NCBI GenBank assembly: GCA_964016885.1
Contig: OZ024740.1
Location: forward strand, 70,804,001-70,868,000
From: Eledone cirrhosa
Lineage: Eukaryota
DNA length: 64,000 nt
Direction of reading: 5' to 3'
Every line of letters starts with the position of its first letter. Position 1 is the first letter of the stretch. The notes beneath the pieces were generated by a model that worked only from the letters and a program-made list of their open reading frames with translations, was not told the DNA's origin and did no database searches. The translations under genes were made by a program, and so were the position numbers. This document shows positions 10,200 through 59,779 of this stretch, in pieces.

Positions 10200-10721
<522 letters not shown>

Positions 10722-10944: not shown

Positions 10945-11450
<506 letters not shown>

Positions 11451-11452
<2 letters not shown>

Positions 11453-11633
11453 CGAAGGAAATGTGGTAAGGAACCAGGTAGACCATAACGCACCAAAGTA
11501 CTCAATACTTAGGGTAGTAGAGTGGGTATAGGAACGAGTAGGACCCCGACGGCTGAGCTCAAGCCGTTTCAACGGTACCTTATTAGCCGTCGAAAGGGCT
11601 TGAGCTCAGCCATCGGGGTCCTACTCGTTCCTA
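11451..11633 (-). mobile_element. Second copy of palindromic module A (opposite orientation)
   Basis: Tail 11451-11527 and arms about 11528-11576 / 11583-11633 homologous to 10491-10692. Confidence 0.75.
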
Positions 11634-11723: not shown

Positions 11724-12135
11724 TATAAATGTTTGTATATGTATAATAAAGCCAAAACAATGCAGGTATGGACATAGAATAAAGAATGCAAATGCAAAAG
11801 ATATTGTTGACAATTAGTCTTTTACCTTAGATTTATTTAAATGTCCTTAATTTTCGAGATAATATCTCTTCTTCGGAGGGAAGTAAAGCGGTTAAACCAG
11901 TGTTCAAGCTATTTAGAACACTGGTTTAACCGCTTTACTTCCCTCCGAAGAAGAGATATTATCTCGAAAATTAAGGACATTTAAATAAATCTAAGGTAAA
12001 AGACTAATTGTCAACAATATATTTTGCATTTGCATTCTTTATTCTATGTCCATACCTGCATTGTTTTGGCTTTATTATACATATACAAACATTTATACCT
12101 CATTACACAATGCTTCAAGTGAACTATAACTTCCT

Positions 12136-12463: not shown

Positions 12464-12512
<49 letters not shown>

Positions 12513-12516
<4 letters not shown>

Positions 12517-12730
12517 AAGGTAAACAGAAATAACAACACAATCGGTACAGTATATGGAAGGGATATATTAGGTTAATGCTTGATATAGCAGGAAGAGGGT
12601 TTTAACGTTTCGGACGCTAGTCCTTCATCAGAAGAAAGAATGAGAAATAAGATAGATAGAGGGGACGGGCGGGATGGTATTGGAAAAAATGTCTTTAGAT
12701 AAAAATAACAGGTCCATTCATGTTGACATC
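12513..12730 (-). mobile_element. Penelope-like 3' module (family H1) with hammerhead motif
   Basis: Homologous to 40143-40365 (+) and 50725-50860 (-); ends in (CA)n/(TA)n. Confidence 0.7.
12600..12636 (-). ncRNA. Minimal type I hammerhead ribozyme motif
   Basis: Minus strand reads CTT-CTGATGA-A-GGAC-TAGC-GTCC-GAAAC-GTTA: conserved core with 4-bp stem II. Confidence 0.7.
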
Positions 12731-13133: not shown

Positions 13134-13167
<34 letters not shown>

Positions 13168-13171
<4 letters not shown>

Positions 13172-13299
13172 TATCCCGGGTTCAATCGGGAGTGACCACA
13201 GTAAGTAAGGTACTCAATACATAGCAGAGTATAAATATTTAATATAGAAATGGCTTCCAGAATGAACCAGTTCTAGTCCTGTAGAAGCCATTTCTATAT

Positions 13300-13306
<7 letters not shown>
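13168..13306 (-). mobile_element. Small palindromic module (23-bp arms 13235-13257 / 13284-13306) plus tail, inside (TA)n
   Basis: Perfect inverted arms; tail shares GTATTGAGTAC with the module A tail. Confidence 0.6.
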
Positions 13307-13457: not shown

Positions 13458-13722
13458 AGTATATTTGGCAATATACCGTATGTTTGATTAAACACATTTA
13501 GAAAACCATACCTATCGGTTATAAAGTAGTGACTATATCACTTACTTCTTTCCGTCGAAAGAAGGAAGAGAAGCTAACAGTCTGTTTCACGCTGTTTGGC
13601 GATCATCAGAGCCAAGCACCCTCTGCTTCCACCGAAAATTATAGAAGCTGGATTCTTATAGAATTCTAGTAATAATCAGGAGCTGATTATACAGAGCGAT
13701 TGCCGTTCCAGCAAAAATTAGG
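13458..13722 (-). mobile_element. Penelope-like module B with hammerhead motif
   Basis: Homologous to 58204-58375 and 58546-58715; between TA-rich tracts. Confidence 0.65.
13572..13612 (-). ncRNA. Hammerhead ribozyme motif
   Basis: Minus strand GGCT-CTGATGA-T-CGC-CAAACA-GCG-T-GAAA-CAGACTG-TT-AGC; stems I, II and III can be drawn. Confidence 0.65.
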
Positions 13723-35720: not shown

Positions 35721-35939
35721 AGCAAGTGCAGAGAGATCTCCAGATATAAAGCAATGCCTGTACCGTGAAGCTTTTATAGTGAGCAAAGGCCCCGATGGTA
35801 TCCAATGATGTTGACTTGTTCTTCTTTTTGGTAAATATCATCATGGTTAAGAGAGTGGGACATACATACATACATACATACATACATACATACATACATA
35901 CATACATACATACATACATACATACATACATACATACAT

Positions 35940-36454
35940 ACATGGTGGCTGCCAACTCGTTTTCGAGTACGGCCACTACTTTATATCCATGTAGGAGGAC
36001 CCCTACCGATGCGCTGAACAAGCGTGACTTTTTAGTCCAGCCAGCGACTTGAAAACTCTGGTACAAACACTACACTTGTGACAATTATTGACACATAGTG
36101 CTGGACCCATGGTACCATGTGATGACAAGTGCAGAGAGATCTCCAGATATAAAGCAATGCCTGTGCCGTGAAGCTTTTATAGTGAGCAAAGGCACTGCAC
36201 AAAGCCAGTCCCACTCTCTTAACCAAGATGACATTTACCAAAAAGAAGAACAAGTCAACATCATTGGATACCATCAGGGTTGCAGGTGTTATATCAGAGT
36301 TTTGCTTCTCCTAGAATTCTGCCTTGACGAAGGCTAAGGGGTCATCTCTCCCGGTGATTTGGATGGCCATTGACTCTTAAGAACTCCTTTGCCCTTTGAC
36401 AGGTTTTGTTTTTAGTCCTGCAGGATGTCCAAAGTCACCCTCCTCACCAAGAAA
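35940..36454 (-). mobile_element. Non-autonomous RTE-derived element
   Basis: Near-identical to the reverse complement of about 30613-31128; (CATA)n on both sides. Confidence 0.88.
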
Positions 36455-36915: not shown

Positions 36916-36920
<5 letters not shown>

Positions 36921-37700
36921 AGTTAATATAAATTAATATATATGATAAAACACAAATACCAACATATAAGTGTTTGTATTGTAAATGACTAAGTTAGCTA
37001 GATTGAAAGATACTAATTATAATAATACAGTTTGCCTGTCTCGATTTAAAATAATAAATCAATAAACGATATTGGCAAAAGGCCGTGGTACTTAGACAAA
37101 TTTAAATTTCAAAATCAAACCTGTTCCGTAGATAAGTTTAAACTTCAAAATCCAAATAAGTTTCGAGATGAAAAAGTGAAAGAATACCCCGTTCAGCTCT
37201 CCTCAGTAAGTACCCTGAACAATTGGTATGCTTCACTTCAAAATATTTTAAAAGACTGTTTAACACACATGGTTTTCCAGTTTCTAGCTGCCGCATACTC
37301 GTTCTGCTAGAAATAACAGCGTTAAACAGTCTTTTTAAATATTTTGAAGTGAAGCATACCAATTGTTCAGGGTACTTACTGAGGAGAGCTGAACGGGGTA
37401 TTCTTTCACTTTTTCATCTCGAAACTTATTTGGATTTTGAAGTTTAAACTTATCTACGGAACAGGTTTGATTTTGAAATTTAAATTTGTCTAAGTACCAC
37501 GGCCTTTTGCCAATATCGTTTATTGATTTATTATTTTAAATCGAGACAGGCAAACTGTATTATTATAATTAGTATTTTTCAATCTAGCTAACTTAGTCAT
37601 TTACAATACAAACACTTATATGTTGGTATTTATGTTTTATCATATATATTAATTTATATTAACTTGTATTACACGGCTCAGAAATACTTCTTTCTTTGAG
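36916..37700 (+). mobile_element. Long palindromic module (349-bp arms 36916-37264 / 37321-37669) plus short tail
   Basis: Inverted arms with about two visible mismatches; hammerhead-like CTGAGGA-GAG...CTC-GAAAC-TTA at 37379-37428; left end in (TA)n. Confidence 0.75.
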
Positions 37701-44219: not shown

Positions 44220-44282
44220 GTTTTGCGAGGTTTTTGATATGAAATCGTGTGTCGAAACAAATATAGTTATACTTGTGGAGAA

Positions 44283-44726
44283 TCATATTTGTGTAATATT
44301 GCCAGAATTAATAACAGAACACACTCACTGTTTGGTTGGTTTTCGCTTTTATGTCTTTTATATCGGTTAATTTAATTAATTCGGTCCTCAATGTTACCAT
44401 TGACTGACCAACGGTCAAAAATACAGATACAATATAGACACAAACACATATATATAGTCTATCAAAGTTCTTTCGTTGCACATCTGCAACATCGTCAGTG
44501 GTGCTATTATGTTTCCTCCCGTTGTATTGTATGCTTACGCTATCTTTATTTAGTCTGTATTGTATCTGTATTTTTGACCGTTGGTCAGTCAATGGTAACA
44601 TTGAGGACCGAATAAATTAAATTAACCGATATAAAAGACATAGAAGCGAAAACCAACCAAACAGTGAGTGTGTTCTGTTATTAATTCTGGCAATATTATT
44701 ACACAAATATGACCCTCCCCAAGTAT

Positions 44727-44731
<5 letters not shown>
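44283..44731 (+). mobile_element. Palindromic module (about 157-bp arms 44283-44438 / 44553-44712) plus tail
   Basis: Inverted arms with few mismatches; its 3' end recurs at 12212-12290 (-); ends in (TA)n. Confidence 0.7.
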
Positions 44732-44947: not shown

Positions 44948-45383
44948 ATACATTATGAAGAGAGAAGAAACATTTAGATATAATTAGTAATAAAATGTAT
45001 CATACCTAAACTGTTCCTAAATTCCTCGACTACCTAGTTTCGTGGCATAAACAAAAACAATATATCAAAGATATAGAGTCCTTGCGAGGTCTGCCGACTT
45101 ATCAAGAGGATACCTCATTTTACTAGTCTCAAGAACGCGTCTACACGACGTGAGAAAGAATCCCAAAAGGCGGGGGGGGGGGAGATAGTCACGCGATATA
45201 ACGGTCGAGAAACAGAGCTAAGCCTCTTATAACCACGAAGAAAATACCACGGAGGCGGAGGGGGTATTCATATCGAGGCCGTAGAAGAGGTAGTGAAGAA
45301 GGCGAGAAGTATGAGTAATGGAACAGTTTAGGTATGATACATTTTATTACTAATTATATCTAAATGTTTCTTCTCTCTTCATA

Positions 45384-45389
<6 letters not shown>
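44948..45389. repeat. 70-bp inverted repeat (44948-45017 / 45320-45389) enclosing about 300 bp unique sequence
   Basis: Arms are reverse complements; right arm runs into (TA)n. Confidence 0.8.
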
Positions 45390-50346: not shown

Positions 50347-50724
50347 TATGTGTGGCAGGTGCACTTATATCAATGACACACAAATCACTCACACACATAG
50401 ACGCAATAATGCATACCCATGAAGTCCACACCATCAGCACACACATAACAACATCCATGACACAGCTGGAATCTCCACTTCGGCCACCAATCTCGAATTC
50501 TTTACAACTAGCGAACCACCCCCAGTCACAAGTTTTTTCCCCAAAACTCCGATGTTTCCGCCCCCCCCTCCTCACTCTCTCCATTTCCTGAAGGAGGTAT
50601 TATGTCTGAAACATCAAGCTCTATTCTACTTCCTGCTAAGTGTGATACTAATATGACTTTGTGTTTTTGCATCTCTGTAATATATACATATATATAATAT
50701 ATATATATATGCGTGTGTGTGTGT

Positions 50725-50856
50725 GTAAAAGGTAAACCGAAATAACAACACAATCGGTACAGTATATGGAAGGGATATATTAGGTTAACTCTTGGCATAG
50801 CAGGAAGAGGGTCTTAACGTTTCGGATGCTAGTCCTTCACCAGAAGAAAGCATGAG

Positions 50857-50860
<4 letters not shown>
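50725..50860 (-). mobile_element. Penelope-like 3' module H1 with hammerhead (about 50812-50846)
   Basis: Minus strand TCTT-CTGGTGA-AGGAC-TAGC-ATCC-GAAAC-GTTA-AGA; between (TG)n and (TA)n. Confidence 0.7.
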
Positions 50861-51213: not shown

Positions 51214-51369
51214 AATAATAATAGTGAGTATAACCGAAGTTGCAGCTGTGAGTAACTGGTTCGGAATCGATTTATATATATATATTGGGAAAGTAAATAA
51301 CAACAACAAGGAGTACAGTTACGAAAGGTGTTAGGGATTAGGTTCACGCTTGAGAGTGGGGGCTGGGGG

Positions 51370-51402
51370 ACGACGTTTCGGACATAAGCCCTTCATCAGG
51401 AA
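51370..51402 (-). ncRNA. Hammerhead ribozyme motif within Penelope-like module H2 (about 51300-51585)
   Basis: Minus strand CTGATGA-A-GGGC-TTAT-GTCC-GAAAC-GTC. Confidence 0.65.
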
Positions 51403-52257
51403 AATGGGGGGAAAGAGAGGAGTTCCGAGAGACTGTGAGGGGGCAGTGGTGGAAAAACATTAAATTAATAGGAAAAAAATTAAAATGGAGGGAAAAGAAT
51501 TAAAATTAAAATAACACATGAGTGGGACAATAAGTTGAAAACAAGTGGTGAAAGGGTGTAAAGCGTGTAGAGGTGGTGGTGGGTCATATATATATACATC
51601 TTAAATATAGATCAAAATAAATTATTTCAGTCATATTACATCATAAATAACTCCATGAATACCAGGGCTAAAATCCACATTTTCAGAGCTCCGTTTACAA
51701 AAGTTTTATTTAGGTATAAATAAATATATATATATAAATAAATATATATATATATAATAACTAGAAATTGATTAACATATATATAAACATGAATAATCAC
51801 AGGAGATAATTTTTACAAGCGTGTAACCACGCATAGCTAGTAGGTAACAAATAAATATGTTACAAATAAATAAAAATGTTAATCAATTTCTAGTTATTAT
51901 AAAATGCTCGGACCTACAAAATCTTTGAGATTATTTTCCGGGCGATATGGCGCACGCCGTTATGGCATGACACCCACAATTTCGATTTAGATTAAATTCA
52001 TTTAATTTATCTTAATATATATATAGTATAGTAAAACATAGCATAGTAAACAAAAATACATTTAAAGTAAAACGTAATTCTACTTACATTATTGCTAAGA
52101 CCATGTTTTCGGGTGAAAAAGAAAACTACCAATCACTATAATTAAAATGTTTACTTATGAAATTAAGACTGTCAACCTCTTCGGTAAGCATAATCTTACA
52201 AAATATATTTTCAACTTTTTTAAGAGAATTCAAATAAATTGTTTTGTGTTGATAACA

Positions 52258-52464: not shown

Positions 52465-53362
52465 TACGAGGTGGGTCAGAAAAGTTCCAGGACTGATGTC
52501 ACAAAATATTTATTTCAAACTCTAACTTCACACTAAGAGTTTTCTCCTTCAAAGTAATCCCCCTGGAGTATGTAACTGTAATCTTAGCTCTCTGCAGCGA
52601 TCGAACTTTTTCCTTCATAATTTTATATACATGTCCTCTGTTTCAGGTCGTCAAGCAATGAGCACAGAGCAACGAACAAACTTGAAAACTCCGTCAGAAG
52701 CACTGGGATTGCTGCAGCAAGTGTAATGAGATGAGACGATGTCACGCTCACGTGTTTTTGAGTGGTGCAAGAGGTTTAAAGAAGGACGCGATGATGTGGA
52801 AGATGACCCCAGGAGCGGAAGGCCCTCAACAACCAGGACTGAGGTCAACGCTGAGCGCGTCAGGCAGATGGTGCGTAGCGATCGTCAGCTGACTGTTCGA
52901 CTGATAGCAAATGAGCTGGGCATGAATCGGGACAGCATCTGGAAGATTCTCACTGAAGATTTGGACATGCGGAAAGTCTGCGCGAAGATGGTGCCAAAAC
53001 TGCTGAACGATGACCAGAAGGGTCGACGCATGCAAGTGTGCCAGGACATCCTCGAGCGTCTTGAAACCGAACCAGACTTGCTAGGGACAGTTATCACCGG
53101 TGATGAGTCATGGATCTTCGAGTACGACCCGGAGGGGATCCGTTTTGAAGACGTGGACGACATCAAAAAGGCCGTGACGATGGTACTGCGGAGGATCCCG
53201 GAAGATTCCTTCCAGGAGTGCATGCAAGCGTGGCAGAAAAGGATGGAAAAGTGCATTAGACTCCAGGGGAGATTACTTTGAAGGAGAAAACTCTTAGTGT
53301 GAAGTTTGGGTCTGAAATAAATCTGTTGTGACATCAGTTCTGGAACTTCTCTGACCCACCTC

Positions 53363-53365
<3 letters not shown>
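52465..53365 (+). mobile_element. Mariner-family transposon, internally deleted, with about 105-bp inverted termini
   Basis: TACGAGGTGGGTCAGA... / ...TCTGACCCACCTCGTG; TA on both sides within (TA)n. Confidence 0.93.
52658..53296 (+). pseudogene. Mariner transposase remnant
   Basis: MSRSRVFEWCKRFKEGR...DDPRSGRP...AKMVPK...ITGDESWIFEYDPE then a jump to RFEDVDDIKKAV...WQKRMEKCI..QGDYFE; second and third catalytic Asp region deleted; stops in N-terminus. Confidence 0.92.
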
Positions 53366-57971: not shown

Positions 57972-58065
57972 GGGGGGTGGGGGTCAGAGGGGGGTATTAT
58001 TGATTCAACATCAAAGATGGATGAGCTCCTTAACGTCGAGTGCTTTTCCTAATATTACATCATGA

Positions 58066-58133
58066 TTAACTATGTGGAATGACCACTTCTATCCAGTGGT
58101 GAACCAACCACCCAACCTAAATGAATATATATA

Positions 58134-58207
<74 letters not shown>

Positions 58208-58499
58208 ATTTGGCAATATACCGTATGTTTAATTAAAAACATTTAGAAGACCATACGCTATCAGTTTTAAAGTAGTGACTATGTCACTTACTTCTTTTCG
58301 GCGAAAGAAGGGAGAGAGCTGGCACTATGTTTCACGCTGGTTGGCGTTCATCTGAACCACGTACTCCCATGCTTATATATATATATATATAGGAAAATGT
58401 TTAACCCGACGGCAGAGCTCAAGCCGTTTCGATGGCTATTTCTGGACCAGAAATAGCCGTCGAAACGACATGAGCTCTGCCGTCGGGGTTAAATATTTT

Positions 58500-58549
<50 letters not shown>

Positions 58550-58711
58550 CATGGGAGTACGTGGTTCAGATGAACGCCAACCAGCGTGAAACAGTGCCAG
58601 CTCTCTCCCTTCTTTCGCTGAAAAGAAGTAAGTGACATAGTCACTACTTTAAAACTGATAGCGTATGGTCTTCTAAATGTTTTTAATTAAACATACGGTA
58701 TATTGCCAAAT

Positions 58712-58778
<67 letters not shown>

Positions 58779-58915
58779 TCATTTAGGCTTGGTGGTTGGT
58801 TCACCACTGGATAGAAGTGGTCATTCCGCATAGTTAACCATAAGTCTACTACCCTAAGTATTGAGTATTCTGGTGCGTTATGGTCCATCTGGTTCCTTAC
58901 CACACTCCCTTCGTT
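58066..58915 (+). mobile_element. Composite palindromic module A: about 380-390-bp inverted arms (centre 58446) including module B and microsatellites, plus module A tail
   Basis: 58066-58445 is the reverse complement of 58447-58837 apart from scattered mismatches and microsatellite length differences; tail 58845-58915 homologous to 10621-10692. Confidence 0.78.
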
Positions 58916-59203
58916 ATATATATATATATTATATATATATATTATACATATTATATATATATATATTATATATATATATTATACATATTATATATATATA
59001 TATTATACATAATAATACACATGCACATACACACACACATATACATGCCCATCCATCCATACATACACATACATATATACACATACATATATATTGCTGA
59101 GATGATGTTTTAGTAGTGTCAATATATATGATAACCAACTGTAACAAATATAGTAACACGGGATAAAACTTATTAATTAACTTTTTAAAATCCTTTCAGA
59201 GTC

Positions 59204-59372
59204 GTGGATTGGCAGTATCGGTAGAGGGTCGGACGCCATGCTTTCCAGCATAGTTACGTCCCTTTACCATCTGAGTTCAAATCCCGCCGAGGTTGACTTT
59301 GCCTTTCATCCTTACGGGGTCGATAAAATAAAGTACCAGTAATTGCTGGCCTTGTGCCTAAAGTAGAAACAG
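59204..59372 (+). mobile_element. SINE family A
   Basis: Full-length match. Confidence 0.92.
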
Positions 59373-59779
59373 TTATTTAGTGTGGAAAAAATTTAATATA
59401 GAAAGACAATACTGACAGTAATGTTAAAAATGTTGTTAAATGGCAGAATATATTATACAGAGGAGATTAATTAGATGTTACTATGCATTGTTTAGCGGCT
59501 ACTCTTTCAAAAAACGGTTTTTTCTTTTGTTCTTCGTGTCTTTCAGCTTTTCCAAAATAAATATTCCAAATATGTGTTATGCTGATATATCTTTATCTCT
59601 TCCCATCTATCAAACACTTGCAAAAACACAAACGCACATACACATATATACATCGATGCACTTACATATACACACTCACACTCACACGCGTACCCCCCCC
59701 CCCCCCCACACACACACACGTATATATACAGAGTAAAAGAAAGAGAAATATAAATTGATAGATAGAGAGATAGATATAT

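What the first reader, a model, noticed from the sequence alone, without database searches (positions are those of the whole stretch)
58066..58915. Palindromic element that has captured and mirror-duplicated about 330 bp of foreign cargo
Seen: at 10.5 and 11.5 kb module A's arm joins its tail directly. Here arm and tail are separated by (TA)n, module B (with its own hammerhead), (TC)n(CA)n(TA)n and about 60 bp of another sequence, and all of that is mirrored on the left up to the start of the tail. The arms differ by point changes and microsatellite lengths, which argues against an assembly fold-back. Inference: the inversion end-point is set by the tail rather than by arm sequence, the arm/tail junction is itself an insertion target, and the system can transduce and invert-duplicate arbitrary sequence. 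That would be a route to new long hairpins or dsRNA loci.
Basis: partly seen in the sequence, partly recalled or inferred. Interest (0 to 1): 0.75.

Follow-up and report, generated by a model that had tools for sequence, protein, structure and literature searches.

The report
Penelope hairpin copied its own flank
The palindrome is real, but its 'cargo' is a reversed copy of the older DNA lying just left of a Penelope-type retrotransposon stub, likely made when DNA copying folded back on the stub's 55-base hairpin, ran about 340 bases into that flank and then returned to the stub's tail; six more loci of this build were found in the same genome.

Summary
The mirror is real: 58062-58445 against 58447-58841, then a tail lacking its first 7 bases. 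The '60 bp' is the 3' end of another repeat family (C), and on the left C runs 60 bp past the mirror end. The locus-specific variants of C and B each occur exactly only twice, both here. So there is no sign of a donor: the right arm is a local inverted copy of pre-existing left flank. Module A is the hammerhead-bearing end of a Penelope-like element with Hydra-clade motifs. The build recurs: 7 of 68 TA-flanked A hairpins (this one included) mirror their flank and return to A sequence, and 3 more mirror it with no A tail. That is about 0.1% of A hairpins. It is likely a four-point template switch primed by the hairpin. Whether it happens at insertion or later is open; divergence leans later. 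Reads were inconclusive. The scan noted one similar case elsewhere in this genome (e1-9532538). New variant of known processes.

The parts
58002..58124 (+). 3' tail of repeat family C (another hammerhead hairpin+tail family); original copy, extends 60 bp past the mirror end
   Evidence: 39 other matches cover query 13 to 117-135; 2183 first-look candidates
58125..58204 (.). compound microsatellite (AT)6(GT)7(AG)27, original
58205..58374 (-). family B fragment, original; ends short of B's own tail; hammerhead core mutated
58375..58391 (.). (TA)9 target of the A insertion
58392..58445 (-). A left (inverted, 5'-truncated) arm; inferred priming site of the fold-back
58447..58501 (+). A right arm: 3' half of a type I hammerhead of a Penelope-like pLTR
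58502..58841 (+). derived inverted copy of the left flank: (TA)23, B, (CT)16(AC)7(AT)9, 63 bp of C
58842..58844 (+). 3 unmirrored bases at the return junction; the 9-mer 58837-58845 matches the tail at 58851-58859 with one mismatch (possible transient mispriming, inferred)
58845..58916 (+). A tail, first 7 bases missing; followed by (TA)n
10493..10692 (+). ordinary A copy (arm, loop, arm, tail) used as reference
11450..11633 (-). second ordinary A copy
13460..13628 (-). independent B copy with intact hammerhead core

Best explanation
The right-hand 340 bp is a reversed copy of the DNA that already lay left of a Penelope-type hairpin stub, likely written by a four-point template switch during replication of the finished element. 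Shown: the order C, microsatellite, B, (TA)n, A hairpin; the left copy is the longer, original one; no third exact copy exists; the build recurs at other A loci with unrelated flanks. Inferred: a new strand that had just copied the right arm paired its end with the left arm (55-bp near-perfect inverted repeat, on its own strand or on the other template strand), extended backwards through (TA)n, B, the microsatellites and 63 bp of C, then re-joined the original template 7 bases into the tail, with 3 bases probably picked up by brief mispriming. In four-point terms the order is 3-2-1-4. The core (local, DNA-templated, hairpin-primed copy of the left flank) I put at about 0.9. The timing (after insertion was complete) is the uncertain step.
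For: Polarity. No donor: 2 exact hits, both here; the one 1-mismatch hit L093 has an unrelated context; 2 exact of 130 hits. Recurrence: 7 of 68 loci with flank mirror then A tail, 3 of 68 with mirror and no A tail; a fixed automatic test gave 6 of 68 own flanks against 6 of 4556 cross-locus pairs. Template already complete: L287 re-copies the locus's own loop before the tail, and L282 and L283 repeat the whole hairpin with the same loop (read by eye). Returns before the departure point (L264, L287, L290) match the '4 before 1' class of PMC7954356 (passages). Later timing: A arms differ 13/211 (6.2%) against flank mirrors 8/552 (1.4%), Fisher p=9e-4, 4 loci. Mirror lengths of 114-342 bp in five of seven loci are near the size of small inverted triplications tied to Okazaki ends (PMC13334657, abstract only).
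Against: The clock is confounded: ordinary A arms are already 84/1702 (4.9%) apart while tails differ 1.4% from their nearest copy, so arms mutate faster, and at this locus alone p=0.07. In L296 the 593-bp mirror has 0 differences and the tail is identical to another copy, so element and mirror are both young, as coupling to insertion predicts. This tail has 1 difference in 58 bases from its nearest copy, compatible with the same age as the mirror. Mirrors of about 625 and 1100 bp (L296, L276) are long for a single lagging-strand gap. No clean microhomology at the return junction. No read bridges the junction. No empty or ancestral allele was seen.
Confidence: 0.5

Rival explanations
1. Same fold-back, but during integration: after the two cDNAs are joined, second-strand synthesis (element RT or host repair) snaps back on the hairpin, overshoots into target flank and is then joined to the tail end, giving a target-site inverted duplication.
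For: The Anolis PLE protein cuts and extends both strands and has two RT start sites that delimit the tail (PMC11167929, parts 1-2 of 4). A series exists in this genome: left arm joined straight to tail, partial fold-back then tail (L074, L083, L097, L208), exact fold-back, overshoot. L103 joins a hairpin of another family to an A tail. L296 is young in all parts. L1 insertions with inversions or templated copies of nearby DNA are reported (PMC11702581, passages).
Against: Mirrors are less diverged than the arms they enclose. Three mirrored loci have no A tail. The short joins could be later deletions.
Confidence: 0.3
2. A later break at the arm/tail junction (re-cutting by the PLE nuclease or hairpin cleavage) repaired by snap-back synthesis and end joining.
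For: Departure is at the arm end in every case; tails are often clipped by a few to about 20 bases; 15 of 68 loci have only a short, mostly (TA)n insert between arm and tail. The junction holds ATT, the preferred cut of the Anolis enzyme. Snap-back SD-MMEJ (PMC5728401, passages) and foldback inversions at yeast breaks (PMC11724301, abstract) give this geometry.
Against: Returns that re-copy arm or loop sequence (L233, L247, L257, L264, L266, L279, L287, L290) need an intact template upstream of the junction. Reported yeast foldback inserts are mostly 5-34 bp.
Confidence: 0.12
3. One reading: a chimeric RNA (arm + B + cargo + tail) from a donor locus was retrotransposed and mirrored leftwards up to the tail start.
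For: PLE pLTRs can move unrelated DNA in trans (PMC3846280, passages). The mirror does stop at the tail.
Against: C continues past the mirror on the left; no donor; in the right arm C is reversed and clipped; every other case mirrors its own flank.
Confidence: 0.03
4. Assembly or read fold-back artefact.
For: No contig bridges 58841/58845. L296 is a 100% mirror.
Against: Both arms have private substitutions and different microsatellite lengths; the strand returns to the tail instead of mirroring to the contig end.
Confidence: 0.03

Closest known systems
Inverted pLTR plus tail of endonuclease-bearing Penelope-like elements, Hydra clade (PMC8557442 passages and section 11; PMC3846280 passages; PMC11167929 parts 1-2; PMC4209133 passages)
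   Same: Module A: inverted 5'-truncated copy, tail on one side, (TA)n target, type I hammerhead with U3-A8 core, linked to an RT + C-terminal nuclease frame with Hydra motifs.
   Different: Tail about 80 bp, not 30-40. The passages read do not describe target-flank DNA copied in reverse between arm and tail.
Short-range four-point template switching (PMC7954356, passages)
   Same: Order 3-2-1-4 yields a single inverted repeat; '4 before 1' returns also seen here.
   Different: Here the primer is a 55-bp mobile hairpin present in more than 19,000 copies, and the reversed tract is 100-1100 bp.
Small inverted triplications (PMC13334657, abstract) and foldback/snap-back insertions at breaks (PMC11724301 abstract; PMC5728401 passages)
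   Same: Local inverted copy primed by an inverted repeat and closed by a second switch; similar size for the triplications.
   Different: Those use short chance repeats in mutant, cancer or induced-break settings; these are assembled, aged loci seeded by a retroelement.
L1 insertions with target-site inversions, inverted duplications and templated flank (PMC11702581, passages; its Figs S9-S10 not seen)
   Same: Retroelement-associated inverted copy of DNA beside the insertion site.
   Different: L1 has no built-in terminal hairpin; coupling to insertion is shown there and not here.
pLTR-mediated capture of host DNA in Adineta (PMC3846280, passages)
   Same: Non-element DNA enclosed by PLE ends.
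   Different: There DNA is moved to a new site with a target duplication; here nothing moved and the copy is local and reversed.

Membership tests
EN+ Penelope-like element (module A) | Hammerhead in the pLTR | tested here: met
   12 long A copies show a type I layout, 8 with U3-A8 core; RNAfold gave the three-helix fold in 3 of 4 folded. Rfam found none. Cleavage not tested.
EN+ Penelope-like element (module A) | Inverted 5'-truncated copy with a tail on one side | tested here: met
   9,548 exact-filter hits
EN+ Penelope-like element (module A) | Linked ORF with RT and C-terminal GIY-YIG nuclease | tested here: met
   L331: 710-aa open frame on A's strand, upstream of an A arm+tail, starting in A's tail extension. 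Domains named by motif, by eye; Pfam and PDB gave 0 hits.
Hydra clade | DKT motif, CxCX5C linker, no CCHH, CxxC and CxH near the end, (TA)n target | tested here: met
   All visible in the L331 frame against section 11 of PMC8557442; RWK reads RWR
Hydra clade | Phylogenetic placement | not tested
   No reference set on hand
Four-point template switch | Descendant = forward + reversed nearby tract + forward | tested here: met
Four-point template switch | Ancestral allele without the reversed tract | not testable with these tools
   G000 has no relatives here; contigs did not resolve the locus
Four-point template switch | Homology at the switch points | tested here: inconclusive
   55-bp inverted repeat at the first switch; only an offset 8/9 match at the return; 1-4 bp at L245, L264, L290 by eye

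The most novel reading that the evidence does not exclude
Hydra-type Penelope integration itself ends with DNA-templated snap-back synthesis that sometimes runs past the arm into the target, so these loci are trapped integration intermediates: a 'target-site inverted duplication' signature in about 1 of 1000 insertions, turning any neighbouring DNA into a 0.2-2 kb palindrome and exposing the order of the unresolved late steps of PLE insertion.
Probability: 0.3. Interest if true: 0.65.

Novelty: new variant of a known kind. Interest (0 to 1): 0.42.

Why it matters
A family of more than 19,000 hairpin stubs, one of several in this genome, seeds local inverted duplications of whatever lies beside them. 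That is a steady source of long palindromes; the 780-base mirror here is predicted to pair 730 bases if transcribed (transcription not shown). Because every event starts from nearly the same 55-bp primer, the set is a natural assay of template switching: tract lengths, return points and ages can be counted. If the events prove coupled to insertion, they bear directly on how Penelope-like elements build their inverted ends and tail, which the papers read call unresolved. It is not a cargo-moving system.

Tried and rejected
Reads: no RNA holder listed. Logan contigs of X1-X3, X5 and X1-X4 were swamped by family copies; none bridged the C/tail junction or spanned the mirror, so they neither support nor refute. 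Rfam: 0. Pfam and PDB for the L331 frame: 0; the Atlas gave no answer. Survey by odd bases in front of the tail (118 and 294 hits): 106 other distinct loci viewed, of which only L073 showed a flank mirror directly before the tail (old, no A arm); many were viewed by eye over 260-600 bp only, so this is a weak negative. The 29 best other tail matches showed no foreign block between arm and tail in what was printed (output partly cut). Idea that the two arms often come from different RNA templates: rejected, 1 of 28 discordant for common variants, 19 of 28 identical against 3.2 expected. Idea that the shared GAGT(A/G)CT tail motif fixes the mirror end: offsets do not match (read by eye). L243/L244 looked like a mirrored pair but only microsatellite-like DNA is shared. 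L285 (A copies mirrored on both sides) left unresolved. Literature searches listed no paper on flank mirroring by PLE hairpins; the library lacks most subscription journals and Repbase reports, and supplements were not read.

Full report
Observation. The window lies in a 3.0-Gb genome (G000:C1:70804001-70868000). Aligning the two sides of position 58446 gives a mirror from 58062-58445 to 58447-58841. The right side reads A arm (58447-58501), (TA)23, module B (58547-58714), (CT)16(AC)7(AT)9, 63 bp of a third sequence (58779-58841), 3 unmirrored bases and the A tail from 58845. Ordinary copies at 10.5 and 11.5 kb join arm and tail directly; here the first 7 tail bases are missing. Arm differences are 4+1 indel in 54 aligned bases (A), 1+1 in 168 (B) and 4 in 63 (C).

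What the modules are. A is abundant: 19,152 exact arm-to-tail junctions and 9,548 hairpins under a stricter two-ended filter. Twelve longer copies among the fetched loci hold a full type I hammerhead layout, 8 with the U3-A8 core described for PLE ribozymes (PMC4209133, passages). Three of them run 1.2 kb upstream into a nuclease-like C-terminus. One (L331) has a 710-aa open frame that begins in A's tail extension and shows RT-like motifs, DKT, CxCX5C, no CCHH, CxxC and CxH, the Hydra-clade marks in PMC8557442 section 11. Pfam and PDB gave no hit, so the domains are named from motifs by eye; the Hydra lead came from earlier scan notes. B and C are two more hammerhead-bearing repeat families; their link to an ORF was not tested. 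All target (TA)n, so they pile up next to each other.

Which arm is the original. A search with 57990-58124 returned 39 other matches covering query bases 13 to 117-135; in the alignment of 29 of them the left copy is collinear from 58002 to 58124, 60 bp past the mirror end, whereas the right copy stops at the mirror end and meets the tail. Left and right share private changes in C and 4 in the body of B (3 end-gap columns dropped), so they descend from this locus's own copies. A 32-base locus-specific C pattern has 2 exact hits, both here, and one 1-mismatch hit in an unrelated context. A 32-base B pattern has 2 exact hits, both here, of 130 within 2 mismatches. The right arm is therefore a reversed copy of pre-existing left flank, and there is no sign of a donor.

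Recurrence. If the hairpin primes such copies, A hairpins should exist with (TA)n on both sides and mirrored flanks. That pattern gave 214 strand hits. The first 100 listed were reduced to 68 loci (strand duplicates merged, L244 viewed but not scored). Of 68, 28 have an A tail within 1 kb: 7 after a flank mirror (this locus 342 bp, L245 114, L264 185, L287 200, L290 178, L296 710, L299 561 from arm to tail; L299 mirrors compound microsatellite only, in two rounds), 15 after a short, mostly (TA)n insert of at most 49 bp, 6 through a second or repeated A element. Three more (L270, L274, L276) mirror 60 to about 1100 bp of flank with no A tail found. A fixed automatic test scored 6 of 68 own flanks against 6 of 4556 cross-locus pairs; it missed L276, L287, L296 and L299, which were called by eye. 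In L245, L264, L287 and L290 the tail-distal flank simply continues past the mirror end. Taking 107 against 9,548 and 7 of 68 gives roughly 0.1% of A hairpins, a lower bound limited to flanks with at least four TA. L073 is an older mirror before a tail with no A arm. The scan had noted one similar case elsewhere in this genome (e1-9532538), which I did not re-examine.

Mechanism. The product is forward sequence, a reversed nearby tract, then forward sequence: a four-point switch of order 3-2-1-4 (PMC7954356, passages). The first switch has a 55-bp near-perfect inverted repeat to pair with. The return point varies from about 60 bases upstream of the arm/tail junction (L287, L296) through -13 (L264) and -3 (L290) to +9 (here), +13 (L245) and about +20 (L299), so the tail does not fix it. 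Here the junction 9-mer matches the tail 14 bases further on with one mismatch, which may record a brief mispriming; that is inference. In L287 the returning strand re-copied the locus's own loop, and L282 and L283 repeat the whole hairpin, so the template was a finished element. In L296 a strand starting in one A variant crossed to a neighbouring A copy, mirrored about 625 bp and returned to the first variant.

Timing. Flank mirrors are less diverged than the arms they enclose: 8/552 against 13/211 in four tail-return loci (p=9e-4) and 21/1114 against 26/377 in seven loci (p=9e-6) (L287, L296, L299 left out for lack of a clean count or because the hairpin is a hybrid). This leans towards a later event. 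Against it: ordinary arms are 4.9% apart while tails differ 1.4% from their nearest copy, so arms are a fast clock; this locus alone gives p=0.07; L296 is young in every part; and the genome holds a series from arm joined straight to tail, through partial fold-back, to overshoot that fits a two-ended integration like that of the Anolis PLE (PMC11167929, parts 1-2 of 4). I give 0.5 to replication of a finished element, 0.3 to the last step of integration, 0.12 to repair of a later break at the junction, 0.03 each to transduction and artefact.

Reality of the locus. Both arms carry private changes and different microsatellite lengths, and the strand returns to the tail, which argues against a read fold-back. 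Public contigs did not bridge the junction either way, and no RNA holder was listed.

Against what is known. Inverted pLTR plus tail is standard for PLEs (PMC3846280, PMC8557442, passages). Local inverted copies by template switch, snap-back repair and L1 insertion are known. Seven searches listed no paper on PLE hairpins mirroring their flank; the library is incomplete and supplements were not read. Verdict: a real, recurrent, rare by-product of very abundant PLE hairpin stubs; a new variant of known processes, not a cargo-transducing system. Interest 0.42.

Noticed in passing
window 11058-11424, 11728-12093, 13150-13302, 35790-36279, 36918-37667, 44266-44729, 44951-45386: Further hairpin or hairpin+tail elements of other families, most beside (TA)n; 44266-44729 has a hammerhead-like core in its loop.
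   Followed up: no
L331 (G000:C1:4078900-4085000): Near-complete Hydra-type PLE: 710-aa open frame and 1.87-kb head-to-head arms at 98.6% identity.
   Followed up: partly
L103; L274: Cross-family chimeras: a hairpin of another family joined to an A tail (L103), and an A hairpin plus flank mirror joined to another family's arm (L274).
   Followed up: no
L067-L069, L074, L077, L080, L083, L087, L089, L094, L097 and others: Many loci join the left arm, or a partial fold-back, straight to the tail over 1-3 shared bases; either early joins at insertion or later hairpin deletions.
   Followed up: partly
37 ordinary A copies: Left arms looked more diverged than right arms (3.4% against 1.9% to nearest copy); may be an alignment effect of the script.
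   Followed up: no
tails of A (58863), C (58037), 11345 family, 13150 family: A shared GAGT(A/G)C(T/C)-like motif in unrelated tails, seen by eye; earlier scan notes speak of a conserved hairpin there.
   Followed up: no
window 52467-53363: Mariner-like remnant with about 104-bp terminal inverted repeats at 92% between TA; family named from recall.
   Followed up: no
window 59204-59380 and about 20 other places: Abundant ~180-bp SINE-like repeat with a tRNA B-box-like word.
   Followed up: no
window 12500-12660, 50715-50860, 51290-51420: Related short elements with hammerhead-like cores on the minus strand.
   Followed up: no
L285 (G000:C4:105.65 Mb): An A hairpin flanked on both sides by mirrored copies of another A element, the left one with a clipped tail; order of events unresolved.
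   Followed up: partly
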